Assembly (NCBI RefSeq): GCF_004010195.1
Contig: NC_057719.1
Location: 4,017,902 to 4,052,437, forward strand
DNA from: Chiloscyllium plagiosum
Lineage: Eukaryota
Direction: 5' to 3'
Length of the DNA stretch: 34,536 nt
Shown piece after piece: positions 104 to 33,670 of the stretch. The notes under the pieces were generated by a model. That model did no database searches. It was not told where the DNA came from and was given only the letters and a program-made list of their open reading frames with translations. Every line of letters starts with the position of its first letter. The first letter of the stretch is position 1. The position numbers were made by a program, and so were the translations under genes.

Positions 104-304
104 AGTCTCATCTGTTTTCATATTAAAGGGTATCGAGAGGCCTTTTTGTTTCTTTGTACCAAACCAGTCTGATCGGAAGTGGGAGCTGTTTATGACCCTC
201 TGAAAGAAACCAAAGGCACAGTATTCTTGAGAAAAGGAAAAGCTTTTAGAGAAAAGGGACCAACTTTGTGATATAGGAGAATGATTTTAAGTCTGCTCGC
301 TGGT

Positions 305-670
305 TTACTGCAGAATGTGCTGTTCTAGAAAATTGCCCTGAAAGCATTCTACCAACTCTTCATCTCGGCTCTCTTTGTCCGTCTGAACTTTACCAATGAA
401 TTGTGGATTAAAATCTCCCAAGATTATTGCCATGCCTTTCTGACAAAGTCTCAGTATTTCTTCCTTTATGCCTCTCCTTGCTGTGTGATTCCAAAGAAAT
501 GAATTTTTGCCTTTATTATTTATCATTTTTACCCAAACAGTTTTCACATCTTGGTTTCCTGAACTTAGGTCGTCCCTCTCTATTGGGCTAATCATTAACT
601 AACAACCTCTCCTTTTTTGGTTTCCTTTCATTCCTAAATGTCTTATCCTTCAAGTTACAGGTTCCATTCC
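305..670 (-). mobile_element. Decayed CR1 LINE ORF2 fragment, AP-endonuclease domain
   Basis: ORF 305-595 contains IILGDFN (APE motif) and EELVECFQGNFLEQHI, similar to FVQCVQEGFLTQYV of the CR1 at 15891-16151. Confidence 0.8.
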
Positions 671-1553
671 GTGTTATTCATGCATTCAGGAATATCAAAT
701 TTAAAACCGGCTCAACAATTTGTATAACCGGAGAAAAGGGAATGATCTGATTTCTGTGTAAAGTAAGTGACTTGTCTTCAAAATAATTCTTTAGTTGCAA
801 AGTACTGGCAGTATATTTTCTGTCTAAAGAAGTTCTGATCCAAAGGAAGTCGAAATGGAAACTATCAAGGGAGAGCGACATACAATCCATATTTAAAATT
901 CCATTCTCGGCGAGAAACCCATTTTTTTTTTTCTCACTACGGTTTGTAAATTGCTGACTCCAGATCGAAGGCCAAAAATAGTTTGAGTTCAAGGCTCTGA
1001 AATTGTGTTGTTAGAGAATAGCTTTCATAAACTCCTTCATGCTTAATAAATACAGGAGTTGGGATGAATTAAAGGAGAAACATAGTGTTTGGTTAATCAT
1101 TCCTCATCCACTGAGTCGAAAGTGCACCTCAAAGTATCTTTAAACTTGAAATGGCAACTGAAGTAGTATTCATTGACTACCTGTCAAACAAATGAACCCA
1201 TTGCTGCGTGGCGCCTCCAGAGAGGTGCTGTTTTGTGTGTGTCTGTGCAACAAGTGGTTGATTGAAAACAATACTCTTGAGTTTCTGCTTTCTAGTCATC
1301 TAGGTGATCCTAATTCAATGATGTAAGGCCCAAAGATGGCAGAAAAGAAAATAACAAAGATCCAACACTAATGTCAGTGTTAATTGGGCCCAGTTGTGCT
1401 GGACAGAAACATAATTGTTCAGTAATCTAATTAGTTATATGGTTTGACCTTATCATCCCATGGTGATGATTATTAGAAAGTTTGACAAGTGACCTGCAAT
1501 ATAAGCATAGCTTCATGTCTAAGCATGACCTGACCATTTACTTATCGACAATT

Positions 1554-1890
1554 GGGGAGACGATGGCCTAGTGGTATTATCACTGGACTGTTAATCCAGA
1601 GACCCAGGTCATGTTCTGGGGGCCTTGGTTCAAATCCTGCTATGGCAGATGGTGGAATTTGAATTCAATAAATATCTGGAATTAAGAATCTAATGACAAC
1701 AAATATCCATTGCCAGTTGTCAGAAAACACCCATCTGGTTCACTAATGTCTTTTAGGGAAAGGTGTCTGCTGTTCTTACCTGATCTACATGTGACTCCAG
1801 ACCTACAACAAAGTGGCTGACTTTCAACTACCCTCTGGGCAATCGGGAATAGGCAATAAATGCTGCCTAACCAGTGATGGCCCATTGTCC
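1554..1890 (+). mobile_element. tRNA-derived SINE (family 2) with LINE-derived tail
   Basis: A-box-like GATGGCCTAGTGG and B-box-like GGTTCAAATCC. Tail GGCAATAAATGCTGCCTAACCAGTGATG resembles the LINE 3' end at 8405-8600 (minus). Confidence 0.8.
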
Positions 1891-2382
1891 ACTTCAAACT
1901 AAATTCGGAGCAACATGGGAAAATGAAATGCTGCCTTTTTGATAAGGGTTTTGGGCTCAAATTCACCCAATAGCTTTCAGGACTTTTTCTATTCTTGGTG
2001 GTAGGTGGAGAAACCTTGCATTTGTTACTGGTCTTAAAGATCGAGGTACTTGACTGCCAAGTCAAAGTCCTGATGACTATACAGTGTAGCAGTATCCACA
2101 GTACTGTTAGATGAGGAATTCCAAATCTTGTTTGAACAATAATGTATTTCCCAGGTAGGAATGTGTTTCAGGAGAGCTTGCAGGTTGTAGTGTAATGCCT
2201 CACTGGCGTAGCACATTGGATATCAAGTCCAACTATTCTCAAAGTCAAAGTTACAATTCCCCAATTTACCTGCCATTTAAACCCAGGTAGACTGATAATT
2301 CTGACCGAGTTTCTGTTCCTAACAAGTAAATAGATTCAAATTTCACAGACAATTATGAACAATTGACACACAATTCTACTGG

Positions 2383-2519
2383 GTAAAAACAATGACTGCA
2401 GATGCTGGAAACCAGATTCTGGATTAGTGGTGCTGGAAGAGCACAGCAGTTCAGGCAGCATCCAAGCTCCTTGGATGCTGCCTGAACTGCTGTGCTCTTC
2501 CAGCACCACTAATCCAGAA
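2383..2519. mobile_element. Penelope-like foldback insertion: perfect 50-bp inverted repeat with 15-bp TSD
   Basis: Arms 2417-2466 and 2470-2519 are exact reverse complements (loop CTC). Flanked by ACACAATTCTACTGG (2368-2382) and ACACAGTTCTACTGG (2519-2533). Related to 4180-4276 and 33544-33670. Confidence 0.88.
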
Positions 2520-3544
2520 CACAGTTCTACTGGTTAAAACTCTAATCTACTGATAACCAACCCCGACACAGACAAAGCATGTGTTATTGGTAGAGAGAAA
2601 GACTGAGCAGGCTCATCGGTGGGTTATTCCTGAAAAGAGTGAGCGATTGGGTTGTCACATCCTGCAAGACTGAAAAATACCCCCCAACCCAAAAATCGCC
2701 AGACATGTCAGCAGAACAAATTAACCTTTTAAAGTCTCATTCCCACTTTTTATCATTCTATGATAATCAACTAAATGGGGTTGACAAAGTTGTTACCAGC
2801 TTAGTCACAAGAATCTGACAGCCAGTATTTAAGCAAGTTATTGACACGCAACATACGATGGTTATAACAACAAGAATTACTAGTCTATGTAGTACATATA
2901 ATCCCCAGAATCCTCCCACGTGGAAAAAGTGTTCACCAGTAAAGTTCTTAAATCCTCAGTCCTTAGTGACCACTCCATTTCCACCTCACCAAGTTGAGTG
3001 GAATCGAGCAAGTTATCCGAAATCTCTTTCCGTAAAGTCCAAGCTGAAAACAAAATCTAGTCTGGCAGGGGTCAGTTCTGTTGTGTACAGTGGATAGGGA
3101 GCCCAGGCCTCTGGGGATGCAGAGATTAGTGCTGTTCTTGCAAGCTTGAAGGGGTCCCATGCAATGAAGTGTGCTCACAAGGCAAGGTGCATATGTAGGG
3201 TTAGATGTAGCCATCTGTTTGCTTTTGGCCATCTTCCTGTTCAACTTAGCAAATTCCAACCGGAGATTCTGAGGATTTTTGGAGTCAAATCAAATGCCAT
3301 TTAAGGCTTTTTTTGCTTCTGCTATCAAATGTAACAAAACCAACTGGCTGTTTTGATGTTAGTTTGATCAGTGAACCTTCATATTCCTTAAATGATCGAA
3401 AGAGAAGGTAAAGCTCACGTGGTTTAATATCCATAGGAAGGCCACTGACAAAAACCGTACGGACCTCCTCTTCACCATTTGTGAATGGGGTGCTAATCTA
3501 CCGGGCTACTTTGTCTTCCACGATGTTTTGAGTATTTTTGGAGT

Positions 3545-4170
3545 CGCACTTGTCCAGCCAAGTGGGGAGTTTATTGTCAGATGTCTGATCGTTTTGGAGA
3601 TGGTGGACAGGCTTAGGAGGTGAGTTAACTGCTCTGGGTTCTTAGCCTTAGATATGTTCTTTTAGCTACCATATTTATATTGCTAGTTTAATTCAATTTT
3701 CCATCAATAGTAATCCCCAGGATTAGTGATTGTGATATAATGTCAGTGAATGTCTAAGGAGCAATGGTTAATTCTCATTTGTTGGGGATGGCCAGCTATG
3801 TTGTTTCATTGGAGATGGTCATCGCCCATCACTTGTCTGGTGCGAATGTCATTTACCACTTGCCAGCACAAATTTGGGTATTTTCTAGGTCTTGTTGCAT
3901 TTGGGCCCCTGATAATTGGGAGTAGGCTTATGGGGCTGTAACTGGCTAGGTTGAATTACCTGTGGATTTTGTACTGGATATTCCCAGGCCATTTTCCACA
4001 TTTTTGGAAAGATGCCAGTTGTTGTATCTGTACAGGAATAGCATGTTAGGATTACAACAAAATCTGGAGTACAGTCTTGAGTATTATTTCTGGAATGATG
4101 TCAAGGCACTTAATCTTGCAGTATTCATTGCCCTTGGTTGTTCCTTGCTATCACATGAAGTTAATGGCTA
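3545..4170 (-). mobile_element. Old decayed LINE ORF2 fragment (second LINE family, CR1/L2 group)
   Basis: Shares blocks with 11890-12070 (GACAGGC...AGGAGGTGAGTTA...TAGCYAC...ATATTTATAT...CCCCAGG). Confidence 0.6.
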
Positions 4171-4179
4171 AAGCTTGGT

Positions 4180-4276
4180 GAAAGTGAGAACTGCAGATGC
4201 TGGAGATCAGAGTCGAGAGTGTGTTGCTGGAAAAGCACAGAAGGTCAGGCAGCATCTGAGGTGCAGGAGAATTGAT
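4180..4276 (-). mobile_element. Penelope-like terminal-repeat fragment (family A), truncated before the ribozyme core
   Basis: GAAAGTGAGAACTGCAGATGCTGGAGATCAGAGTCGAGAGTGTGTTGCTGGAAAAGCAC... is near-identical to 33545-33640. Confidence 0.8.
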
Positions 4277-4320
4277 TTTTTTTTTGTTCCTTCCTGATTT
4301 GTACAACAACATCAATGATT

Positions 4321-4710
4321 AAGGGGAGATCTAATAGAAACTTACAAGATAATACATGGCTTGGAGAGGGTGGACGCTAGGAAATTGTTTCCGTTAGGCG
4401 AGGAGACTAGGACCCGTGAACACAGCCTTAGAATTAGAGTGGGTAAATTCAGAACAGAAATGCGGAGATATTTCTTCAGCCAGAGAGTGGTGGGCCTGTG
4501 GAATTCATTGCCGCAGAGTGCAGTGGAGGCTGGGACGCTAAATGTCTTCAAGGCAGAAATTGATAAATTCTTGATGTCACAAGGAATTAAGGGCTACGGG
4601 GAGAATGCGGGTAAGTGGAGTTGAAATGCCCATCAGCCATGATTGAAAGGCGGAGTGGACTCGATGGGCCGAATGGCCTTACTTCCGCTCCTATGTCTTA
4701 TGGTCTTATG
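4321..4710 (+). mobile_element. 5'-truncated CR1 LINE (ORF2 C-terminus and 3' UTR)
   Basis: ORF 4361-4624 ...FFSQRVVGLWNSLP...GIKGYGENAGKWS. Tail GATGGGCCGAATGGCCT...CCTATGTCTTATGGTCTTATG. Confidence 0.92.
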
Positions 4711-13588: not shown

Positions 13589-13799
13589 TTATCCAGGCCA
13601 TCAATAAGGAGCAGGAGTATGATCTAACTATTCTAGAGACCATGTTCATGAAGGTGGCGTGGAAAAATGTAATGCGGAAAGTCAGGAGGCATGGGATAGA
13701 GGGAAATTTGGCCATTATCCAGGCCATCAATAAGGAGCAGGAGTATGATCTAACTATTCTAGAGACCATGTTCATGAAGGTGGCGTGGAAAAATGTAAT
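13589..13799 (+). repeat. Perfect 85-bp direct repeat flanking a 41-nt CR1 RT snippet
   Basis: 13589-13673 is identical to 13715-13799. Spacer 13674-13714 encodes RKVRRHGIEGNLA (compare KKMQIHGIEGNLA at ~16998-17036). Confidence 0.92.
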
Positions 13800-15837: not shown

Positions 15838-15898
15838 TCTCGCTCACGCTCTCTCTCTAGCTCGCGCGCGCCCTCTCGCGCTCTCTGTGTGTGTATGT
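15838..15898 (+). repeat. Short compound (CT)/(CG)/(GT) microsatellite
   Basis: TCTCGCTCACGCTCTCTCTCTAGCTCGCGCGCGCCCTCTCGCGCTCTCTGTGTGTGTATGT. Confidence 0.8.
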
Positions 15899-18070
15899 AG
15901 AATGGTATAACTCTGGTATGTCGGATGGATCAGTTTTTGTCCAATGTGTACAGGAAGGTTTCCTGACACAGTATGTCGAAGGGCCAACAAGAGGGGAGAC
16001 CACAATGGATTTGGTGCTTGGTAATGAATCAGGCCAGATGTTTGATCTAGTTGTAGGTGAGCACTTTGGGGAGTGTGAGCATAATTCAGTTACGTTTAGT
16101 TTAGCAATGAAAAGGGTACATGCCACAGGTCCAGAATTATCAATGGGGTAAAGGCAATTATATTGCGATTAGGCAAGAATTAGGATGCATAGAATGGGGC
16201 AGCAAAATGCAGGGGATGCAGACAATGGAAATGTGAAGCTGGTTTAACGAACAGATATTGCCTGTCCCTGTCAGGCAGGGAGGAAGTGATAAGGTAAGGG
16301 AATCGTGGTTTACTACAGAAATTGCATCTCTTGCTAAGCAGAAGAAGGAGACTTATGTGTTGATGAGGTAAGATGGTTCACATGAGGCGAAGAAGAGTTA
16401 CAGATCAGCTAGGAAGGATTTAAAGAGAGTTAAAAAGAGCAGAGAGGACACGAGCAGCCTTTAGCAAATTGAATAAAGGAGAACCCTAAAGCTTTCTATA
16501 GGTATGTGAGGAATAAAAGGATGACTAGGGTAGGATTAGGGCCAGTCAAAGAGAGAAGTGGGAAGTTGAGTGTGGACCCTGTGGAGATTGGAGCGATGCT
16601 AAATGAACATTTCTCATCGGTTTTCACTCAGGAGAAAGGAGAATATTCTAGAGAAGAATGAAGTACGAGACATTAGACTAGAAAGGATCGAGGTTAGTTA
16701 CGAACAGGTGTTAGCGATTCTAGAAGCAGTGAAATTAGACCAGTACCCTGGGCCAGAAGGGATTTATCCGAGGATTCTCTGGGAAGCTCGGGAGGAGATA
16801 GCAGAGCCTTTGGCTTTGATATTAACAATTTGATTTCAGATAGTCAACATGGTTTCGTCAAGGGCAGGTCGTGTCTCACAAACCTCATTGAGTTTTTTGA
16901 GAAGGTGACCGAGCATGTAGATGAGGGTAGGGCAGTTGACGTGGTATACATGGACTTCAATAAAGCCTTTGATATGGTTCCACATGGTAGGCTATTGAAG
17001 AAAATGCAGATTCATGGAATTGAGGGTAATTTAGCAGTTTGGATTAGAAACTGGCTTTCTGAAAGAAGGCAGCTGGTGGTGGTTGATGGAAAATAGTCAG
17101 CCTGGAGTCCGCAAGGATCTGTTTTGGGACCACTGCTGTTTGTCATTTTTATAAATGACTTAGACGCAGGCATAGGTGGATGGATTAGTACATTTGCAGA
17201 TGACACTAAAGTCGGTGAAGTGGTGTAATATTCTTCCAAACTGTCCAAGTTGAAGAGGGACTTGGATAAACTGCAGAATTGGGCTGAGAGGTGTCAAATG
17301 GAGTTCAATGTAGATAAATGTGAGGTGATGCACTTTGGGAAGAATAACAGGAAGGCAGAGTACTGGGTCAATGGAAAGATTCTTGGTAGTGTGGATATGC
17401 AGAGGGATCTTGGAGTCTATCCCTGAAAGTTGCCACCCAGGTGGATAGTGCTGTTAAGAAGGCATACAGTGTGTTAGTTTTCATTCGTAGAGGGATTGAG
17501 TTCCGGAGCCACAATATCACGCTGCAACTATCCAAAACGCTGATGCGGCCACACTTGGAATATTGTGTACAGTTCTGGTCCCCATATTTGAGGAAGGATG
17601 TTGGAAGCATTTGAAAAGGTGCAGAGGAGATTAACCAGGATGTTGCCTGATCTGGACGGAAGGTCTTATGAGGAAAGGTTGAGAGACTTGGGTCTGTTCT
17701 CACTGGAAAGAAGGCAGCTAAGAGGGGATTTGATAGAGACATACAAGATGATCAGAGGATTAGGTAGGATAGACAGTGAAAGTCTTTTTCCTAGGATGAT
17801 GACGTCAGCTTGTACGAGGGGACATGACTGCAAATTGAGGGGTGATAGATTTAAGACAGATATCAGAGGCAGGTTCTTTATGCAGGGAGTGTTAAGGGCA
17901 TGGAATGCCCTACCTGTTAATGTAGTCAACTCAGCCACATTAGGGAGATTCAAACAATCCTTAGATAAGCACATGGATGATTTTTGGATAGCGTAGGGGG
18001 ACGAGCTGAGAATAGTTCACAGGTCGGCGCAACATCGAGGGCTTGAAGAGCCTGTTCTGTGCTATGTTCT
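15899..18070 (+). mobile_element. Long 5'-truncated CR1 LINE; ORF2 pseudogenised (EN C-terminus, RT, 3' UTR)
   Basis: Motifs YVEGPTRGETTMDLVLGNE, SQHGFVKGRSCLTNLIEFF, YMDFNKAFD, QGSVLGP, FADDTK (17193-17210), WNALP; many stops and frameshifts; tail ...CCTGTTCTGTGCTATGTTCT. Confidence 0.97.
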
Positions 18071-18144
18071 AGACTGAGATTATATTCGTTGGAATTCAGA
18101 AGAATGAGGGGGGAATCTTATAGAAACACGCAAAACTAGGAAGG

Positions 18145-18281
18145 GTTGCTGTGGTTCTGTTCGCTGAGCTGGGAATTTGTGTTGCAGACGTTTCGTCCCC
18201 TGTCTAGGTGACATCCTCAGTGCTTGGGAGCCTCCTGTGAAGCGCTTCTGTGATCTTTCCTCCGGCATTTGTAGTGGTTTG
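18145..18281 (-). mobile_element. Penelope-like terminal-repeat fragment (family B)
   Basis: Near-identical to 14291-14427. Confidence 0.9.
18184..18223 (-). ncRNA. Minimal type-I hammerhead ribozyme motif, intact core
   Basis: Exact reverse complement of 15344-15383. Confidence 0.85.
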
Positions 18282-18422
18282 AACAATAAAGGAATTAAGG
18301 GATATAGTGAAAGCACAAGTAAGTGGATCTGAGTCTACGAAAAGATCAGCCATTGGATGGCGGAGGAAGCTCGAAGGGCCAGATGGCTGCCTCCTGCTGC
18401 TAGGCCTTATGTTCTAAGTCAC

Positions 18423-18640
18423 TCACCATCCTGACTTGGAAATATACCAATGTTCCTTCACAGGCATTGGGTCAAATTCTGGAATTCCTTCTCTACCGCC
18501 ATTGTGGGTCAACCCACAGTAGGTGGACTGCAGCGATTCAAAAAGGCAGCTCACCATCACCTTCTCAAGGACAAACAGGTGTGGGCTATCGATGATGGTC
18601 AGACAGCGATGCCCAAGTGTCACGAATACATTTTTAAAAA
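18423..18640 (+). mobile_element. 3' end of second LINE family
   Basis: ORF fragment WVKFWNSF...GLQRFKKAAHHHLLK; homologous to 8892-9040. Confidence 0.8.
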
Positions 18641-18649
18641 CCCATTTTC

Positions 18650-21600
18650 TTATGCTATTCCATATTCCTTGATGTCCATGCTGTGTATAAAACAATCAAT
18701 CTTTGTCTTGAACCTACTCAATGTCTGAACTCCTGCTCTCTGGGGTAGAGAATACCAAAGATTCACTACCTTGTGTATGAAGAAATTCTTCTCAGTCCTA
18801 AGTAGCTTACTTCTTCTTCTAAGACTCTTTCCTGGTCTTGGAGTCTCTGCCAAGAGGAAAATCTTTTCCCATTTCCCTGACTAGGCCTTTAAGACGTTTT
18901 TTAAATTCTCAATGAGATCATTTCTCACTCTTCTAAACTGTAGAGAATACAGATCTTGTATGCTCAGTCACTCCTCCAGGACCGTCCTGTGGTATCAGAA
19001 ATTGGTTTGGAGAATCTTGGCTTTAACCTCCTCTGTGGCGGGGACTAAAACTGCACACAACATTGCAGGTGCAGTTTCATCCAGGCTCTACACAACTGAT
19101 AGAAATTGTCTTTATTCCTGTACTCACATCATTTACAATCCTTCACCTTTCTAATTGCTTGCTGCACCTGCATGTTAGCTTCCTGTGACTTGTGTAGAAG
19201 GACATTCGGGTCCCTTTTGGATGTCAGCTTTTCTCAATCTCTTTTTCGCGCTCTCTCTCGCGCTCTCTCTCGCGCTCTCTCTCGCGCTCTCTCTCGCGCT
19301 CTCTCTCTCGCGCTCTCTCTCTCGCGCTCTCTCTCTCGCGCTCTCTCTCTCTCGCTCTCCGTCTCGCGCTCTCGCGCTCTCTCCGTCTCGCGCTCTCGCG
19401 CTCTCTCCGTCTCGCGCTCTCGCGCTCTCTCCGTCTCGCGCTCTCGCGCTCTCTCCGTCTCGCGCTCTCGCGCTCTCTCCGTCTCGCGCTCTCGCGCTCT
19501 CTCCGTCTCGCGCTCTCGCGCTCTCTCCGTCTCGCGCTCTCGCGCTCTCTCCGTCTCGCGCTCTCGCGCTCTCTCCGTCTCGCGCTCTCGCGCTCTCTCC
19601 GTCTCGCGCTCTCGCGCTCTCTCCGTCTCGCGCTCTCGCGCTCTCTCCGTCTCGCGCTCTCGCGCTCTCTCCGTCTCGCGCTCTCGCGCTCTCTCCGTCT
19701 CGCGCTCTCGCGCTCTCTCCGTCTCGCGCTCTCGCGCTCTCTCCGTCTCGCGCTCTCGCGCTCTCTCCGTCTCGCGCTCTCGCGCTCTCTCCGTCTCGCG
19801 CTCTCGCGCTCTCTCCGTCTCGCGCTCTCGCGCTCTCTCCGTCTCGCGCTCTCGCGCTCTCTCCGTCTCGCGCTCTCGCGCTCTCTCCGTCTCGCGCTCT
19901 CGCGCTCTCTCCGTCTCGCGCTCTCGCGCTCTCTCCGTCTCGCGCTCTCGCGCTCTCTCCGTCTCGCGCTCTCGCGCTCTCTCCGTCTCGCGCTCTCGCG
20001 CTCTCTCCGTCTCGCGCTCTCGCGCTCTCTCCGTCTCGCGCTCTCGCGCTCTCTCCGTCTCGCGCTCTCGCGCTCTCTCCGTCTCGCGCTCTCGCGCTCT
20101 CTCCGTCTCGCGCTCTCGCGCTCTCTCCGTCTCGCGCTCTCGCGCTCTCTCCGTCTCGCGCTCTCGCGCTCTCTCCGTCTCGCGCTCTCGCGCTCTCTCC
20201 GTCTCGCGCTCTCGCGCTCTCTCCGTCTCGCGCTCTCGCGCTCTCTCCGTCTCGCGCTCTCGCGCTCTCTCCGTCTCGCGCTCTCGCGCTCTCTCCGTCT
20301 CGCGCTCTCGCGCTCTCTCCGTCTCGCGCTCTCGCGCTCTCTCCGTCTCGCGCTCTCGCGCTCTCTCCGTCTCGCGCTCTCGCGCTCTCTCCGTCTCGCG
20401 CTCTCGCGCTCTCTCCGTCTCGCGCTCTCGCGCTCTCTCCGTCTCGCGCTCTCGCGCTCTCTCCGTCTCGCGCTCTCGCGCTCTCTCCGTCTCGCGCTCT
20501 CGCGCTCTCTCCGTCTCGCGCTCTCGCGCTCTCTCCGTCTCGCGCTCTCGCGCTCTCTCCGTCTCGCGCTCTCGCGCTCTCTCCGTCTCGCGCTCTCGCG
20601 CTCTCTCCGTCTCGCGCTCTCGCGCTCTCTCCGTCTCGCGCTCTCGCGCTCTCTCCGTCTCGCGCTCTCGCGCTCTCTCCGTCTCGCGCTCTCGCGCTCT
20701 CTCCGTCTCGCGCTCTCGCGCTCTCTCCGTCTCGCGCTCTCGCGCTCTCTCCGTCTCGCGCTCTCGCGCTCTCTCCGTCTCGCGCTCTCGCGCTCTCTCC
20801 GTCTCGCGCTCTCGCGCTCTCTCCGTCTCGCGCTCTCGCGCTCTCTCCGTCTCGCGCTCTCGCGCTCTCTCCGTCTCGCGCTCTCGCGCTCTCTCCGTCT
20901 CGCGCTCTCGCGCTCTCTCCGTCTCGCGCTCTCGCGCTCTCTCCGTCTCGCGCTCTCGCGCTCTCTCCGTCTCGCGCTCTCGCGCTCTCTCCGTCTCGCG
21001 CTCTCGCGCTCTCTCCGTCTCGCGCTCTCGCGCTCTCTCCGTCTCGCGCTCTCGCGCTCTCTCCGTCTCGCGCTCTCGCGCTCTCTCCGTCTCGCGCTCT
21101 CGCGCTCTCTCCGTCTCGCGCTCTCGCGCTCTCTCCGTCTCGCGCTCTCGCGCTCTCTCCGTCTCGCGCTCTCGCGCTCTCTCCGTCTCGCGCTCTCGCG
21201 CTCTCTCCGTCTCGCGCTCTCGCGCTCTCTCCGTCTCGCGCTCTCGCGCTCTCTCCGTCTCGCGCTCTCGCGCTCTCTCCGTCTCGCGCTCTCGCGCTCT
21301 CTCCGTCTCGCGCTCTCGCGCTCTCTCCGTCTCGCGCTCTCGCGCTCTCTCCGTCTCGCGCTCTCGCGCTCTCTCCGTCTCGCGCTCTCGCGCTCTCTCC
21401 GTCTCGCGCTCTCGCGCTCTCTCCGTCTCGCGCTCTCGCGCTCTCTCCGTCTCGCGCTCTCGCGCTCTCTCCGTCTCGCGCTCTCGCGCTCTCTCCGTCT
21501 CGCGCTCTCGCGCTCTCTCCGTCTCGCGCTCTCGCGCTCTCTCCGTCTCGCGCTCTCGCGCTCTCTCCGTCTCGCGCTCTCGCGCTCTCTCCGTCTCGCG

Positions 21601-23845
21601 CTCTCGCGCTCTCTCCGTCTCGCGCTCTCGCGCTCTCTCCGTCTCGCGCTCTCGCGCTCTCTCCGTCTCGCGCTCTCGCGCTCTCTCCGTCTCGCGCTCT
21701 CGCGCTCTCTCCGTCTCGCGCTCTCGCGCTCTCTCCGTCTCGCGCTCTCGCGCTCTCTCCGTCTCGCGCTCTCGCGCTCTCTCCGTCTCGCGCTCTCGCG
21801 CTCTCTCCGTCTCGCGCTCTCGCGCTCTCTCCGTCTCGCGCTCTCGCGCTCTCTCCGTCTCGCGCTCTCGCGCTCTCTCCGTCTCGCGCTCTCGCGCTCT
21901 CTCCGTCTCGCGCTCTCGCGCTCTCTCCGTCTCGCGCTCTCGCGCTCTCTCCGTCTCGCGCTCTCGCGCTCTCTCCGTCTCGCGCTCTCGCGCTCTCTCC
22001 GTCTCGCGCTCTCGCGCTCTCTCCGTCTCGCGCTCTCGCGCTCTCTCCGTCTCGCGCTCTCGCGCTCTCTCCGTCTCGCGCTCTCGCGCTCTCTCCGTCT
22101 CGCGCTCTCGCGCTCTCTCCGTCTCGCGCTCTCGCGCTCTCTCCGTCTCGCGCTCTCGCGCTCTCTCCGTCTCGCGCTCTCGCGCTCTCTCCGTCTCGCG
22201 CTCTCGCGCTCTCTCCGTCTCGCGCTCTCGCGCTCTCTCCGTCTCGCGCTCTCGCGCTCTCTCCGTCTCGCGCTCTCGCGCTCTCTCCGTCTCGCGCTCT
22301 CGCGCTCTCTCCGTCTCGCGCTCTCGCGCTCTCTCCGTCTCGCGCTCTCGCGCTCTCTCCGTCTCGCGCTCTCGCGCTCTCTCCGTCTCGCGCTCTCGCG
22401 CTCTCTCCGTCTCGCGCTCTCGCGCTCTCTCCGTCTCGCGCTCTCGCGCTCTCTCCGTCTCGCGCTCTCGCGCTCTCTCCGTCTCGCGCTCTCGCGCTCT
22501 CTCCGTCTCGCGCTCTCGCGCTCTCTCCGTCTCGCGCTCTCGCGCTCTCTCCGTCTCGCGCTCTCGCGCTCTCTCCGTCTCGCGCTCTCGCGCTCTCTCC
22601 GTCTCGCGCTCTCGCGCTCTCTCCGTCTCGCGCTCTCGCGCTCTCTCCGTCTCGCGCTCTCGCGCTCTCTCCGTCTCGCGCTCTCGCGCTCTCTCCGTCT
22701 CGCGCTCTCGCGCTCTCTCCGTCTCGCGCTCTCGCGCTCTCTCCGTCTCGCGCTCTCGCGCTCTCTCCGTCTCGCGCTCTCGCGCTCTCTCCGTCTCGCG
22801 CTCTCGCGCTCTCTCCGTCTCGCGCTCTCGCGCTCTCTCCGTCTCGCGCTCTCGCGCTCTCTCCGTCTCGCGCTCTCGCGCTCTCTCCGTCTCGCGCTCT
22901 CGCGCTCTCTCCGTCTCGCGCTCTCGCGCTCTCTCCGTCTCGCGCTCTCGCGCTCTCTCCGTCTCGCGCTCTCGCGCTCTCTCCGTCTCGCGCTCTCGCG
23001 CTCTCTCCGTCTCGCGCTCTCGCGCTCTCTCCGTCTCGCGCTCTCGCGCTCTCTCCGTCTCGCGCTCTCGCGCTCTCTCCGTCTCGCGCTCTCGCGCTCT
23101 CTCCGTCTCGCGCTCTCGCGCTCTCTCCGTCTCGCGCTCTCGCGCTCTCTCCGTCTCGCGCTCTCGCGCTCTCTCCGTCTCGCGCTCTCGCGCTCTCTCC
23201 GTCTCGCGCTCTCGCGCTCTCTCCGTCTCGCGCTCTCGCGCTCTCTCCGTCTCGCGCTCTCGCGCTCTCTCCGTCTCGCGCTCTCGCGCTCTCTCCGTCT
23301 CGCGCTCTCGCGCTCTCTCCGTCTCGCGCTCTCGCGCTCTCTCCGTCTCGCGCTCTCGCGCTCTCTCCGTCTCGCGCTCTCGCGCTCTCTCCGTCTCGCG
23401 CTCTCGCGCTCTCTCCGTCTCGCGCTCTCGCGCTCTCTCCGTCTCGCGCTCTCGCGCTCTCTCCGTCTCGCGCTCTCGCGCTCTCTCCGTCTCGCGCTCT
23501 CGCGCTCTCTCCGTCTCGCGCTCTCGCGCTCTCTCCGTCTCGCGCTCTCGCGCTCTCTCCGTCTCGCGCTCTCTCCGTCTCGCGCTCTCGCGCTCTCTCG
23601 CGCTCTCTCTCTAAGAAATACTCAACATTTCTATTTCACCTACCAAATTGGATAACTTCACATACCTACATTATAATCTGTATTTTTCCCACTCAGCCTG
23701 TCCAATCTCTCAACACCTCTTTGCATCTTCCTCATATCACTCATTCCCACCTACCTTTGTGCCATCCACTAACTTGAAGTATTAAATTTTGTCACCTCCA
23801 TGTTATTGATATAGATTGTGAATGGCTGGTGTCCAAACACTGATA
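18650..23845 (-). mobile_element. Old CR1 LINE split by the minisatellite (18650-19245 and 23613-23845)
   Basis: ORF fragment FFIHKVVNLWYSLPQ...DIKEYG on the left. AAGAAATACTC...CTACCAAATTGGATAACTTCACAT...GATATAGATTGTGAAT on the right continues the RT region colinearly. Confidence 0.8.
19247..23612. repeat. CpG-rich minisatellite (CTCCGTCTCGCGCTCTCGCGCTCT) x175 with (CG)2(CT)n flanks
   Basis: 24-bp period from 19357 to 23556 with no variant seen (the supplied translations are uniformly periodic); then a 16-mer (23557-23572) and one more unit. No A between 19238 and 23612. Confidence 0.99.
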
Positions 23846-23854
23846 TAAATCATA

Positions 23855-23955
23855 AACCAAAAGTTCTGAAGATGGGTCACTGGACCCTCTAATTTCTCTT
23901 CACAGATGCTGTCAGACCTGCCCAGCTTTTCCAGCAACCTCCGTTTTTGATCCTG
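23855..23955 (+). mobile_element. Decayed Penelope-like terminal repeat with broken hammerhead
   Basis: CTGAAGA-T-GGGTC-ACTG-GACCC (23866-23887) with GAAAC deleted, followed by CACAGATGCTGTCAGACCTGC...TTTTCCAGCA. Confidence 0.65.
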
Positions 23956-24027
23956 ATACAAATCATAACCTACCACCCTGAGAATGATCTGCTTGTAGAA
24001 CTACACAGATTAGAAACATTCTCTTCG

Positions 24028-24940
24028 AGGCGACATGGTGGCTCAGTGCTGTCTCACAACACCAGGAACCCAGGTTCGATTCCACCCTTCAACTGTCTGT
24101 GTGGAATTTGCACGCTCTTCCTTTTTCTGTGTGGATTTCTTCCAGGTGCTCTGGTTTTTTCCCAGTTACCAAAAATGTGCAGATTAGGCAGATTTGTAAG
24201 TTAAAAGATTAAATGGGAATATCTCTGGAAATTAATGGAATAGTAAAGGGTTAAATTGCACTATCTTTGGGTGGGGACAGCAGTTAAGCAAAAATGCGAA
24301 TCACCCACATCCCAATTAGACAGTCATTTACTACTACTCTCCATTGCTATTGTCAAGTTAAACTATTGTTCAAAATGCTTTCTGGCCAGAGATAGGTCAC
24401 TCCTGCATTATCTTGCGGAATCGGTCAGGCAATCGTCTGCATAACGACTCCCCAGGATTTGGGCACTATCTCTGAGGATGACCTTATCCTGTCATTGTAC
24501 CTGGGGTAACATGTGACTGAGGGTAACTGGGGATTGTATTGAGCGGCATGTGACTGTGGGGGAATGGCCAGACTATCTGTAAGCATGGCCAACTGGCTCG
24601 TATAAAGGGGATGTGTTTTCTTTGTTCAGGGCCTCACTTTGACTCAAAAATGGCTGCAAAGGGAGTCACCTAGCTTGTACAAGCTTTAATAAACTTCACT
24701 TGTTTGCAGAAGTTGGTATGTATGAATTGCATCTCGTGTGCAAAACCTCAGGAAAAGAAGCTAACGGATTGGCCATGTTACATTGCTCATAGTGTCCTGG
24801 GATGTGTAGGCTCGGTGGGTTAGCCATGGGAAATGCAGGGCGACAGGGATAGGATAGGGGAGTGGATCGAGGTGGGATGCTGTTCAGAGAGTTGTTGTGG
24901 ACTTGTTGGGCCAAAATGCCTGCTTTCTCACTGCATGGAT
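24028..24940 (+). mobile_element. Decayed HE1-like SINE split by an LTR (24028-24194 and 24767-24940)
   Basis: GGTGGCTCAGTG...GGTTCGATTCC...ATGTGCAGATTAGGCAGATT | GATTGGCCATG...GTGGACTTGTTGGGCCAAAATGCCTG. Confidence 0.85.
24195..24766 (+). mobile_element. Solo LTR (572 bp) with 4-bp TSD GATT
   Basis: Ends TGTAAG...CTAACG; GATT at 24191-24194 and 24767-24770; TATAAA at 24601, AATAAA at 24688; cleanly interrupts a SINE. Confidence 0.85.
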
Positions 24941-24944
24941 TCTC

Positions 24945-25075
24945 TGAACTCATCCATGCTGACCAGGTTTCCCAAACTGAATTTGTCCCATTTTGCCTGC
25001 ATTTGTCCCATATCCCTCTAAACCTGTACTATCCATGTACCGGTCCAAATAGCTTTTAAATGGTGTAATTGTTAC
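24945..25075 (-). mobile_element. CR1 3' tail fragment
   Basis: CATCCATGCTGACCAG...CCCATATCCCTCTAAACC...CTTTTAAATG is similar to 25420-25540. Confidence 0.75.
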
Positions 25076-25374
25076 CCCCATTCCATGTGTTCCAAGTTTG
25101 TTTTTGAGTTTGTGGGACTTTACTGAAAGTCGCCTGCAAATACAAATACATTACCTCTGTGATTTTCCCTCATTGGTTCTGCTGGTTTATAAAACATAAA
25201 TTTCTGAAAGGGTAATAATGTAGACTTTGCACAATCTGAATCACAATATTGTTTGTATGCAGGAGAAGACCCTTTGGCCTATCCATGTCTGCTCTGGCTT
25301 TCTGAATGAGCATCTCATATACTTCCAGTCCCCTGCTTCTTTGAATAAACCTGTACATTTTTTCCTTTTTCAAA

Positions 25375-26466
25375 TAGTCATAGGGATGTACAACATGGAA
25401 ACAGACCCTTTGGTCCAACCAGTCCATGCTGACCAGATATCCCAACCCAATCTATTCCCACCTGCCAGCACCCGGTCCATATCCCTCCAAACACTTCTTA
25501 TTCATATACCCACCCAAATGCCTTTTAAATGTTGCAATTGTACCAGCCTCCACCACTTCCTCTGGCAGCTCATTCCATACACACACCAACCTCTGTGTGA
25601 AAAAGTTGCCTCTTGGGTCTCTTTTATATCTTTCCCCTTTCACCCTAAACCTACGCCCTGTAGTTCTGGACTCCCTGACCCCAGGGAAAAGACTTTGCCT
25701 ATTTACTCTATCCATGCCCCTCATGATTTTGTAATCCTCTATAAGGTCACCCCTCAGACTCTGACGCTCCAGGGAAAACAGCCCCAGCCTGTTCAGCCTC
25801 TCCCTGTAGCTCAGATCCTCCAACCCTGGCAACATCTTTGTAAATCTTTTCTGAACCCTTTCAAGTTTCACAACATGTTTCCAATAGGAAGGAGACCAGA
25901 ATTGCATACAATATTCCAACAGTGGCCTAACCAATGTCCTGTATAGCCACAGCATGACCTCCCAACTCCTGTACTCAATACTCTGACCAATAAAAGAAAA
26001 CATATCAAACGCCTTCTTCACTGTCCTATCTACGTGCAACTCCACTTTCAAGGAGCTCTGAACCTGCACTCCAAGATCTTTGTTCAGCAACTCTCCCTAG
26101 GACCTTGCCATTAAGTGGATAGGTCCTGCTAAGATTTGCTTTCCCAAAATGCAGCACCTCGTATTTATCGAAATTAAACTCCATCTGCCACTTCAGCCCA
26201 TTGGCCCATCTGGTCCAGATCCCGTTGTAATCTGAGGTAACCTCTCCCTAGGACCTTGCCATTAAGTGGATAGGTCCTGCTAAGATTTGCTTTCCCAAAA
26301 TGCAGCACCTCATATTTATCGAAATTAAACTCCATCTGCCACTTCAGCCATTGGCCCATCTGGTCCAGATCCCGTTGTAATCTGAGGTAACCTCCTTCGC
26401 TGTCCACTACACCTCCAATTTTGGTGTCATCTGTAAACCTACTAACTGTACCTCTTATGTTCACAT
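25375..26466 (-). mobile_element. 5'-truncated CR1 (HER1-like) LINE with internal ~151-bp tandem duplication
   Basis: 212-aa ORF2 C-terminal ORF 25452-26090; VSRFTDDTKIGG (RT catalytic-motif variant) at ~26420-26450. Confidence 0.97.
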
Positions 26467-27940: not shown

Positions 27941-28249
27941 TTTATGTCGTCGTCTTTTATTTTGGATTCTGTACACCTCAACACCCTTAGATAGTAACCT
28001 GTGAATCTCAGTTTTGAGATTTGCAATTGGCTTAGAGTCTAACCTTTGTGTGAAGAAATGATATCACCATTGAATATCCCGTCTCTTAATTTGAATATCA
28101 TACGCTTGCTCTCTTTTCCTCGCTCGCTTTTCTTGCTTGCTCTATCTCGCTTTGTCAACTTCCTGTCAGGCTTTCTGTTGTTTTTCAGAAAATAAATTTC
28201 TGCCTTGCACTCCATGCTTCTTGCACTGCAAATCTGTAAAGACCTCGTT

Positions 28250-29948: not shown

Positions 29949-31379
29949 GTTTAAACATATTGTTAATTCTTGGACATTTTTGCATATTTATAGTTAGCAT
30001 CATGCTGCCTAATTAAGCAGCAGGATGTCTTGCACTGTGAATGTTGTTGGCATTGATGCAGCCACTCTTAAGTATTCGGAGTGTGTGTTTGTATGAATGT
30101 TCTGCATGATCCTACATTACTGTCCAAAGATTTCAAAGAAGCTATTGTTACTTACGATAGCAGAAGCTTGCAGCTAATTAGTGGCTCATTGCTGAGAAGA
30201 GTGTGCTTAGAATTGAAAGGTGGGAATTGGTAGAACGCTGAAAGTCAAAGTCACTGGGGGTCAGTCTGCCGCCATATTTGTTTCTGAGGAGAGAGCAGCT
30301 GTCTTGAGGCTTTTATTTCCCCCTCCACCCACCCCTTGTTTTTCTTTCTCTCTTGCCATTCTGCTGCAAGTTCGTGCTCTTGTTTAACGCAAGTCTGCAT
30401 TTAAGATTTACTCAGCGCTGTTGGCTATCTGTTTTAAAGCAAGGGGTACAGTGAAGTGGTGGAGGTAGCTAGGAGAGAGTTGTGCGAATTATGATGTCCG
30501 CATAATTGTCTTGAATTCCTAAGCTCCTAGAGTGAAGCATATTCAGTATATCTACTTTGTCTGTGGTGAGTAGTCTGCTCCTAATTCCATGGAATTTTTT
30601 AAACATTTTTTAAAAAAATCCTCCTTGGCTAAATTCTTTGCCCTTGGCTGCGTGACTGCCGGTGCCGGAATCTACGACAAAACTGAAAAGGTCACGTTCA
30701 TTGCTGCAGTAACCATTCACTGTTCTCCATTGTTTGGCATCCACACGGGAAGCTGCAGCTGCCTTTGGCCTTCAGAATATGAGAGATGGCCGTTTGCAGG
30801 AGAAATGCTTTGTTCCAGTAGGTGCTGTGCACTATTAACATGTTAATGCAGGTTACGCTTGCTGTTTTCTCTACTTGAACTTGACATAGTCTGTGTTATG
30901 TTGTCTCTCTGGCTAGAAGCTATCTTTTATGTTGAGGCCTATATTATTCAGCTTTTTTGTTTGTGGTGCTTTTTAAAATTGTTTTTAATAGTCTGCAAAG
31001 AAAAGCCATGATATTTGTCTTAGAATTGAGACACTTTCAATAAAATACTGTGACTCTGGATGGGGTAGTGTTCTTATCTGTTTCTGGGAAAGCCTGAATG
31101 AGGCAGTATTCTTGTGTGTTTCTGGGAAAAGATGAAATACCTGAAGCAAAAATTGAGCTTCAGGTACCTTTCCACTTGTGCCACTCTAACCTTTTATGTG
31201 TAGCATGGAAGTATACACGATGTGGATGTTTTGGATACAATAGTAGTCCATTCTCCACTTTCTCATAAAGGACATTTTTTTCAGAATCTATGTTTACTAG
31301 ATTTTATATTCTGTTCAATGGATAATCCATAGTGATTCCAGCAAAACATTTTGACAAAACTAAGTTCATGAACAGATAG

Positions 31380-32783: not shown

Positions 32784-33043
32784 GGTGGCACGGTGGCTCA
32801 GTGGTTAGCACTGCTGCCTCCTAGCACCAGGGACCCTGATTCGATCCCAGCCTCGGGTGACTGTCCGTGTGGAGTTTGCACGTCGCCAGTTTCCTCCCAC
32901 AATACCAGGTTAGGTGAATTGGGCATGCTAAGTTACCCATAGTGTTCATGGATGTGTAGGGTCTGTGACATTAGGGGAATGGCTTTGGGAAGGTTAATCT
33001 TCGGAGGGTCGGTGTGGGCGTGCAGGGCCAAATGGCCTGTTTC
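32784..33043 (+). mobile_element. HE1-like SINE (older, internal deletion)
   Basis: GGCACGGTGGCTCAGTGGTTAGCACTGCTGCCTC...GGGCCAAATGGCCTGTTTCC. Confidence 0.9.
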
Positions 33044-33334
33044 CGGCACGGTGGCACAGTGGTTAGCACTGCTGCCTCGCAGCGCCAGAGACCCGGGTAC
33101 AATTCCCGACTCAGGCGACTGACTGTGTGGAGTTTGCACGTTCTCCCCGTGTCTGCGTGGGTTTCCTCCGGGTGCTCCGGTTTCCTCCCACAGTCCAAAG
33201 ATGTGCAGGTTAGGTGAATTGCCCTTAGTGTTAGGTAATAAGGGGTAAATGCAGGGGTATGGGTGGGTTGCGCTTCGGCGGGTCGGTGTGGACTTGTTGG
33301 GCCGAAGGGCCTGTTTCCACACTAAGTAATCTAA
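33044..33334 (+). mobile_element. HE1-like SINE (young, near full-length)
   Basis: Highly similar to 14825-15135; CpGs retained; 13-nt deletion at the AATTG microhomology (~33220). Confidence 0.93.
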
Positions 33335-33336
33335 AT

Positions 33337-33530
33337 GGGTGGCAAGGTGGCTCAGTGGTTAGCACTGCTGCCTCAGTGCCAGAAGCCCGGGTTCAATTCC
33401 AGCCTCTGGTTACTGTGCATACTCCACACAGACATTCTCCCCGTGTCTGCGTGGGTTTCCTCCGAGTACTCTGGTTTCCTCCCACAGTCCAAAGATGTGC
33501 AGGTTAGGTGAATTGGTCATGCTAAGTTGC
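33337..33530 (+). mobile_element. HE1-like SINE, 3'-truncated
   Basis: A and B boxes plus central domain up to GGTCATGCTAAGTTGC. Confidence 0.88.
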
Positions 33531-33543
33531 GTGTAGAGTTAGG

Positions 33544-33670
33544 AGAAAGTGAGGACTGCAGATGCTGGAGATCAGAGCTGAAAATGTGTTGCTGGAAAAG
33601 CGCAGCAGGTCAGGCAGCATCCAAGGAGCAGAAGAATCGACGTTTCGGGCATGAGCCCTTCTTCAGGAAT
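33544..33670 (-). mobile_element. Penelope-like terminal repeat (family A)
   Basis: Most complete family A copy; includes the hammerhead motif at its 5' end. Confidence 0.85.
33635..33670 (-). ncRNA. Minimal type-I hammerhead ribozyme motif, intact core
   Basis: Minus strand AUUC-CUGAAGA-A-GGGC-UCAU-GCCC-GAAAC-GUC-GAUU; weak stem I. Confidence 0.78.

What the first reader, a model, noticed from the sequence alone, without database searches (positions are those of the whole stretch)
19357..23556. 4.2 kb of apparently identical CpG-saturated 24-mers: a de novo CpG island inside a dead LINE
Seen: 175 units, 17/24 GC, 5 CpG per unit (875 in total), every G in a CpG, and no TG/CA decay product seen, in an otherwise CpG-poor window. 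The flanks are colinear halves of an old CR1. Known: methylated CpG decays quickly in vertebrates, and CpG-rich repeat expansions can cause fragile sites and local silencing. Inference: a very recent or ongoing expansion, an unmethylated protected array, or consensus over-homogenisation by the assembler. It could be a length-polymorphic epigenetic switch.
Basis: partly seen in the sequence, partly recalled or inferred. Interest (0 to 1): 0.7.

Follow-up and report, generated by a model that had tools for sequence, protein, structure and literature searches.

The report
Young microsatellite-born repeat, length unverified
In a shark-type genome record, a 24-base CpG-rich repeat fills a spot in a dead jumping gene where a related species has only 12 bases; it likely grew there by copying slips from an ordinary TC/GC stutter, and its 175 letter-perfect copies were likely written at least in part by the assembly, so it is probably an ordinary passenger repeat, not a gene switch.

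Summary
175 of 175 units are identical, with 875 CpG, in a window whose CpG o/e is otherwise 0.31, and the flanks are colinear halves of one dead CR1-like LINE (13, 14). One contig of relative C joins both flanks with 12 letters between, against 4,378 here (17, 19), so the tract is lineage-specific. Contigs from two samples of the own species run 36-37 letters past the laid flank and break, so a repeat is present; its length was not testable. The edges hold 8-16-base (TC)nGCGC blocks, a common stutter type, which points to slippage. Purity needs no protection from methylation: youth explains it. Two to eleven real units would supply every k-mer of the 175-unit version (48). This scan noted letter-perfect arrays with other units at four other places in this genome and doubted their assembly. 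Verdict: ordinary microsatellite-derived minisatellite. Copy number and purity partly assembly-written about 55%; real, very recent neutral expansion about 35%; unmethylated regulatory island about 8%. No host gene or promoter was found nearby.

The parts
18612..19245 (-). 3' part of a dead CR1-like LINE (end of ORF2); host element, left flank
   Evidence: aligns to 4 in-window LINE copies, z 7.2-15.5; tblastn E 9e-10; present in own-species contig (X1, 1 difference in 576) and in organism C
19246..19356 (+). left ramp: (TC)nGCGC blocks, four 12-mers, three 14-mers, then a transition block; likely older stage of the repeat
   Evidence: block parse; TRF period 14
19357..23556 (+). core: 175 identical 24-mers, each a 16-base block (one CG interruption) plus an 8-base block; one predicted 4-bp GCGC hairpin per unit; copy number unverified
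   Evidence: folds
23557..23612 (+). right tail: doubled 16-base block, 8-mer, 10-mer and a short (TC) run
   Evidence: block parse; contigs of two own-species samples run 36-37 letters past 23619 and end
23613..23844 (-). upstream (RT-domain) part of the same dead LINE; right flank
   Evidence: continues the left-flank alignment after 10 reference letters; joined to the left flank by one 426-bp organism C contig with 12 letters between

Best explanation
A 24-base CpG-rich tandem repeat lies inside a dead LINE at a site that is empty in related organism C; it likely grew in place by replication slippage from a (TC)n stutter with GCGC interruptions, and its 175 identical copies are likely set at least in part by the assembly rather than read from single molecules. 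Shown: empty site in C, a repeat tract in two own-species samples, block structure of the edges. Inferred steps: (1) a short TC run in the LINE lengthened; (2) a GCGC interruption was copied along, giving 12- and 14-mers; (3) one 16-base block gained a CG interruption and, with an 8-base block, became the 24-mer; (4) the 24-mer multiplied, perhaps helped by the small predicted GCGC hairpin; (5) an assembler or polisher looped over or flattened the core. The CpG density is a by-product of the unit and likely has no regulatory job.
For: Empty site: run X6 holds one 426-bp contig (depth 57.7) lying on 19147-19240 (record 333-426) and on 23619-23885 (record 52-320), leaving 12 letters where the window has 4,378. 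The LINE alignment also leaves only 10 reference letters at the site. Own species: X1 (S1) and X15 (S8, another study) contigs end 37 and 36 letters beyond 23619, where a 31-mer graph breaks on entering a shared repeat. Every block of the tract is (TC)n plus GCGC/GC, 6-16 bases, and the 16-mer differs from a plain TC block at two adjacent letters. Such stutters are common: the ramp drew depth 320 in raw run X21 against 0-2 in unique bins, and 213 of 300 reads keep the G at 19250. For the assembly part: all departures from the unit lie within 109 bp (left) and 39 bp (right) of unique flank; 2-11 true units supply every k-mer of the 175-unit version for k 31-250; copies are more alike (0 in 4,200) than the flank is to another own-species sequence (2 in 843); unchecked scan notes report letter-perfect arrays of other units in this genome.
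Against: No read or contig spanning or covering the core was examined: the read tool skipped 23562-23618 and X22 laid 0 reads, so the artefact step is circumstantial. The lengths are not round (4,219 perfect, 4,367 tract), unlike the 20,000-base block of e1-9338599. The window has no N. Worn edges around a pure centre are also expected of real expansions (general knowledge). The 12 letters in C were not printed, so the local TC seed is inferred.
Confidence: 0.55

Rival explanations
1. The 4.2-kb array is real: a very recent, probably still polymorphic expansion of the same slippage-born unit, neutral and probably methylated like the LINE around it; purity reflects youth.
For: Not round in length; no gap in the window. 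Zero changes are expected for up to about 215,000 generations at the epaulette-shark rate of 7e-10 (PMC10587355 passages, used as a proxy) with an assumed tenfold CpG rate and star-like descent. Kilobase expansions with edge or internal variants are known, e.g. SCA10, 280-4500 repeats (PMC2639644 passages). Per-unit hairpins: -27.6 and -31.2 kcal/mol per 6 units, z -2.8 and -2.4.
Against: It must be younger than about 1-3.5% of the time since the split from C, and younger than the flank's own allelic differences (P of 0 changes about 0.007 at half that divergence). Several other zero-variant arrays of unrelated units in one assembly are easier to explain by one software cause (unchecked notes). 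The hairpin is no stronger in the core than in the non-expanded ramp (-18.4 against -14.8 per 96 nt).
Confidence: 0.35
2. The array is real, stays unmethylated because of its GC and CpG density, and acts as a new orphan CpG island whose length changes local chromatin.
For: 71% GC and CpG o/e 2.0. Synthetic high-CpG, high-GC inserts in a gene desert stay unmethylated and gain H3K4me3/H3K27me3 in mouse ES cells (PMC4204011 passages). Human STR length can track local methylation (PMC10069470 abstract).
Against: No host gene, RNA family or promoter island found in 34.5 kb (exons under 70 codons would be missed). Absent in relative C, so not conserved. No exact BANP/Kaiso, NRF1 or SP1 word (recalled motifs). 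Composition-based island calls gave mixed results outside mammals (PMC8286816 passages). Known expanded CpG-rich repeats become hypermethylated (PMC8744678 passages). The synthetic-island passages read hold no mention of tandem arrays.
Confidence: 0.08
3. Alternative origin step, compatible with either length: the tract was pasted in from another TC/GC repeat locus (templated repair or conversion) instead of growing from a local seed.
For: Hundreds of look-alike TC/GC tracts exist in this genome and in B and C; about 6-10 LINE letters seem replaced at the site.
Against: The tract sits directly on TC-like LINE letters at both ends and grades from simple to complex blocks inward; no target-site duplication is evident.
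Confidence: 0.2

Closest known systems
Vertebrate minisatellites / VNTRs (unit of 7 bp or more; PMC8096271, passages read)
   Same: 24-bp head-to-tail unit, variant units at the edges, lineage-specific presence
   Different: zero variants over 175 units as assembled; copy-number variation between individuals not shown; unit visibly built from dinucleotide blocks
SCA10 ATTCT expansion (PMC2639644, passages read)
   Same: simple repeat in a retroelement-rich setting that lengthened in one lineage; kilobase alleles; variant units at the edge
   Different: 5-bp AT-rich unit, expanded alleles often interrupted, lies in a known gene and causes disease
CpG-rich disease expansions: FMR1 CGG, CSTB dodecamer (PMC8744678, passages read)
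   Same: GC- and CpG-dense short unit, possible hairpins
   Different: those lie at promoters or 5' UTRs next to existing islands and become methylated; here no promoter was found
Mouse expanded simple tandem repeats Ms6-hm and Hm-2 (PMC3419097, passages; their long homogeneous arrays and retroposon origin are recalled, one search found no text)
   Same: long homogeneous array of a simple unit, born in a dispersed repeat (recalled)
   Different: units under 10 bp (recalled); measured germline length-change rates of 3-7%; none measured here
Unresolved exact tandem repeat ('loop tangle') in assembly graphs (Verkko preprint 10.1101/2022.06.24.497523, passages read)
   Same: a unique entry, a cycle of identical units and a unique exit; accurate reads fail on exact repeats and size is estimated
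   Different: the assembler and read type of this record are not known; 4.4 kb is within reach of a long read

Membership tests
Minisatellite (tandem repeat, unit 7 bp or more) | head-to-tail unit of 7 to several hundred bp | tested here: met
   24-bp unit; class limits from PMC8096271
VNTR | copy number differs between individuals | not testable with these tools
   contigs break on entering the repeat and the read tool skips it
Microsatellite-derived repeat born in a retroelement | flanks are colinear parts of one element and an outgroup lacks the tract | tested here: met
   one organism C contig with 12 letters between flanks
Microsatellite-derived repeat born in a retroelement | unit decomposes into simple-repeat blocks with simpler stages at the edges | tested here: met
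CpG island | GC over 50%, CpG o/e over 0.6, over 200 bp | tested here: met
   0.708 GC, o/e 2.0; would still be met by about 10 units; criteria from PMC8286816
CpG island | unmethylated in vivo | not testable with these tools
   no methylation data; absence of decay is uninformative for a young array
CpG island | linked to a transcription start or conserved regulatory element | tested here: inconclusive
   no host gene or RNA family found, absent in organism C; short exons and RNA data not examined
Assembly loop or polishing artefact | exact cycle whose k-mers are all supplied by a much shorter allele | tested here: met
   2-11 units suffice for k 31-250; necessary, not sufficient
Assembly loop or polishing artefact | round or gap-sized length | tested here: not met
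   4,219 and 4,367 bp; 4,200 is only 175 whole units
Assembly loop or polishing artefact | read depth or spanning reads disagree with the assembled length | not testable with these tools
   repeat skipped, X22 laid 0 reads

The most novel reading that the evidence does not exclude
A real 4.2-kb, still-segregating expansion has created an unmethylated orphan CpG island from nothing inside a dead LINE, so that animals with long and short alleles would give a natural test of whether CpG density alone opens chromatin in a shark germline.
Probability: 0.08. Interest if true: 0.55.

Novelty: new member of a known kind. Interest (0 to 1): 0.17.

Why it matters
Most likely it matters little: a tidy example of a dinucleotide stutter turning into a minisatellite, with the empty ancestral site visible in a relative, and a warning that letter-perfect arrays in this assembly need read support. 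If the long allele were real and unmethylated, it would be a natural version of the synthetic CpG-island experiment in a slowly mutating vertebrate.

Tried and rejected
No whole genome is held, so the unit could not be counted elsewhere in the assembly. Read depth over the core could not be had: the read tool skipped the repeat and X22 laid 0 reads (no test). Organism B (X5) gave no long left-flank contig (a hole proves nothing). Of 24 runs listed 6 were laid. Word shares (best 0.61) cannot say whether array words are held. Protein coding by the array: all six frames are open only because the tract has no A on one strand; rejected. RNA family: 0 of 4,227. Pfam: 34 of the 97 ORFs were scanned; above cut-off only RRM_1 and RVT_1, three sub-threshold hits ignored. 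Z-DNA and triplex drivers: alternating and pure-pyrimidine runs in the unit are only 5-8 bases (read from the sequence); rejected as unlikely. Exact BANP/Kaiso, NRF1, SP1 words: 0. Protection from methylation as the cause of purity: unnecessary. Scan look-ups for relatives (none), by words (none) and by sequence (one unrelated phage hit, chance). blastn found no in-window match for the LINE part of the flanks; local alignment and tblastn did (13, 14); the right flank scored z under 2 against 3 of 5 references, which do not reach that part of the element. Paper searches showed no listing on this repeat or on shark TC/GC minisatellites; they were general, and the unit itself was not searched.

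Full report
Observation. Window 19357-23556 is 175 of 175 identical 24-mers with 875 CpG, no A on the + strand and every G in a CpG. Outside the tract GC is 41.6% and CpG o/e 0.31. The perfectly periodic stretch is 19355-23573 (4,219 bp) and the whole tract 19246-23612 (4,367 bp). The window has no N. Its LINE, SINE and Penelope-like content looks like a shark genome (my reading from recalled features; earlier scan notes on this genome say the same). No whole genome was held.

Anatomy. Cut at GC/TC borders, the tract consists only of (TC)n blocks ending in GCGC or GC. From the left: four 12-mers, three 14-mers, a transition, then the alternation of a 16-base block (with one CG interruption, two adjacent letters away from a plain TC block) and an 8-base block, 176 of each. 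At the right end come a doubled 16-mer, an 8-mer, a 10-mer and a short TC run. All departures from the unit lie within 109 bp of the left flank and 39 bp of the right flank. Each unit is predicted to form one 4-bp GCGC hairpin on either strand (z -2.8 and -2.4), only slightly stronger than the ramp's.

Host element. Both flanks align, in order and on the minus strand, to a younger LINE copy in the window (Pfam RVT_1): left to reference positions 14-616, right to 627-874 (protein level). Ten reference letters correspond to over 4,300 in the window. The name CR1 is from recalled motifs.

Other DNA. A search with 17900-26400 listed 24 runs of organisms A (own species label), B and C; six were laid, on the flanks only. 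In organism C (run X6) one 426-bp contig of depth 57.7 lies on 19147-19240 with record positions 333-426 and on 23619-23885 with positions 52-320. It bridges the site with 94 and 269 letters on the two sides and 12 between, where the window has 4,378. C differs from the window at 38 of 937 aligned flank letters (4.1%). Since the LINE itself also lacks the tract, gain in the A lineage is the simple reading; it rests on one contig. In organism A, contigs of X1 (sample S1) and X15 (S8, another study) run 37 and 36 letters beyond 23619 and stop. That is six LINE letters plus 30-31 more, where a 31-mer graph breaks on entering a repeat shared with other loci, and unlike C's contig they do not run through. 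So a repeat tract is likely present in both animals; its letters and length were not shown, because the tool skipped 23562-23618, and raw run X22 laid no read. The seed type is ordinary: the first 30 letters of the ramp drew depth 320 in raw run X21 against 0-2 in unique bins, 213 of 300 reads keeping the G at 19250, and similar pile-ups in B and C.

What purity means. If the copies were as old as the split from C, 85-371 changes would be expected; none is seen, which bounds their age at about 1-3.5% of that time under star-like descent. With the epaulette-shark rate of 7e-10 per base per generation as a proxy (PMC10587355, passages) and an assumed tenfold CpG rate, zero changes are expected for up to about 215,000 generations. 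Lack of CpG decay is therefore no evidence of protection from methylation. The copies are also more alike than the flank is to X1's sequence (2 of 843), so a real 175-copy array would be a recent allele, not a fixed feature.

Real length or assembly? For an artefact: 2 to 11 true units contain every k-mer of the 175-unit version for k of 31 to 250; variants survive only within a short read of unique flank; exact repeats are a known failure in which size is estimated (Verkko preprint, passages); and unchecked scan notes describe other zero-variant arrays in this genome (513 x 39 bp, 44.5 x 740 bp, 169 turns, about 200 x 32 bp) and call the assembly gapped. Against: the lengths here are not round, the window has no gap, 4.4 kb is within reach of a long read, and worn edges round a pure centre occur in real arrays. 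No direct test was possible. I put copy number or purity partly written by software at about 0.55 and a real kilobase array at about 0.43.

Function. The array meets the compositional island criteria, which work poorly outside mammals (PMC8286816, passages). Synthetic GC- and CpG-rich inserts can stay unmethylated in mouse ES cells (PMC4204011, passages), which keeps the island idea alive, but natural expanded CpG repeats become methylated (PMC8744678, passages). I found no target: 34 of 97 ORFs scanned gave only a retrocopy RRM and a LINE RT above cut-off, Rfam gave none, and the only other island-like 500-bp window lies in a SINE cluster at 32.8 kb. Short exons would be missed and RNA was not examined.

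Comparison and verdict. It is a minisatellite by unit size (PMC8096271, passages); VNTR status is untested. It works like other simple-repeat expansions that arise in retroelement debris (SCA10, PMC2639644, passages; mouse ESTRs, PMC3419097 passages, their origin recalled). PMC10069470 was seen as abstract only; other papers only as search listings; no supplements were read. General searches showed no listing on this repeat, which is weak evidence of absence. New member of a known kind; interest 0.17.

Noticed in passing
window 2963-3497 (-): Intronless, frameshifted copy of an RBPMS/RBPMS2-like RNA-binding gene (Pfam RRM_1; PDB 5det and 5cyj E 2e-27); likely a processed pseudogene.
   Followed up: partly
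window 26091-26394: Tandem duplication of about 151 bp inside a young LINE, the two copies differing by one substitution and one indel. The period equals a common read length, so it may be a join of two alleles or copies by the assembly, or a real duplication.
   Followed up: partly
window 13589-13799: Two exact 85-bp direct repeats around a 41-bp piece that reads like LINE reverse-transcriptase sequence; too long for a usual target-site duplication, perhaps a repair scar.
   Followed up: no
   Followed up: no
window 15840-15895 and 28105-28150: Two more short, worn TC/GC compound stutters of the type that seeds the array.
   Followed up: partly
window 30180-30860: Repeat-free stretch that reads like a conserved non-coding element (contains a recalled YY1-like word near 30270); no test made.
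   Followed up: no
window 32784-33547: Three stacked SINE copies give the only other island-like 500-bp window (GC 0.57, CpG o/e 0.61).
   Followed up: partly
window 23666: Run X1 carries G where the window and X15 carry C, so X1's right-flank contig is a different allele from the assembled one.
   Followed up: no
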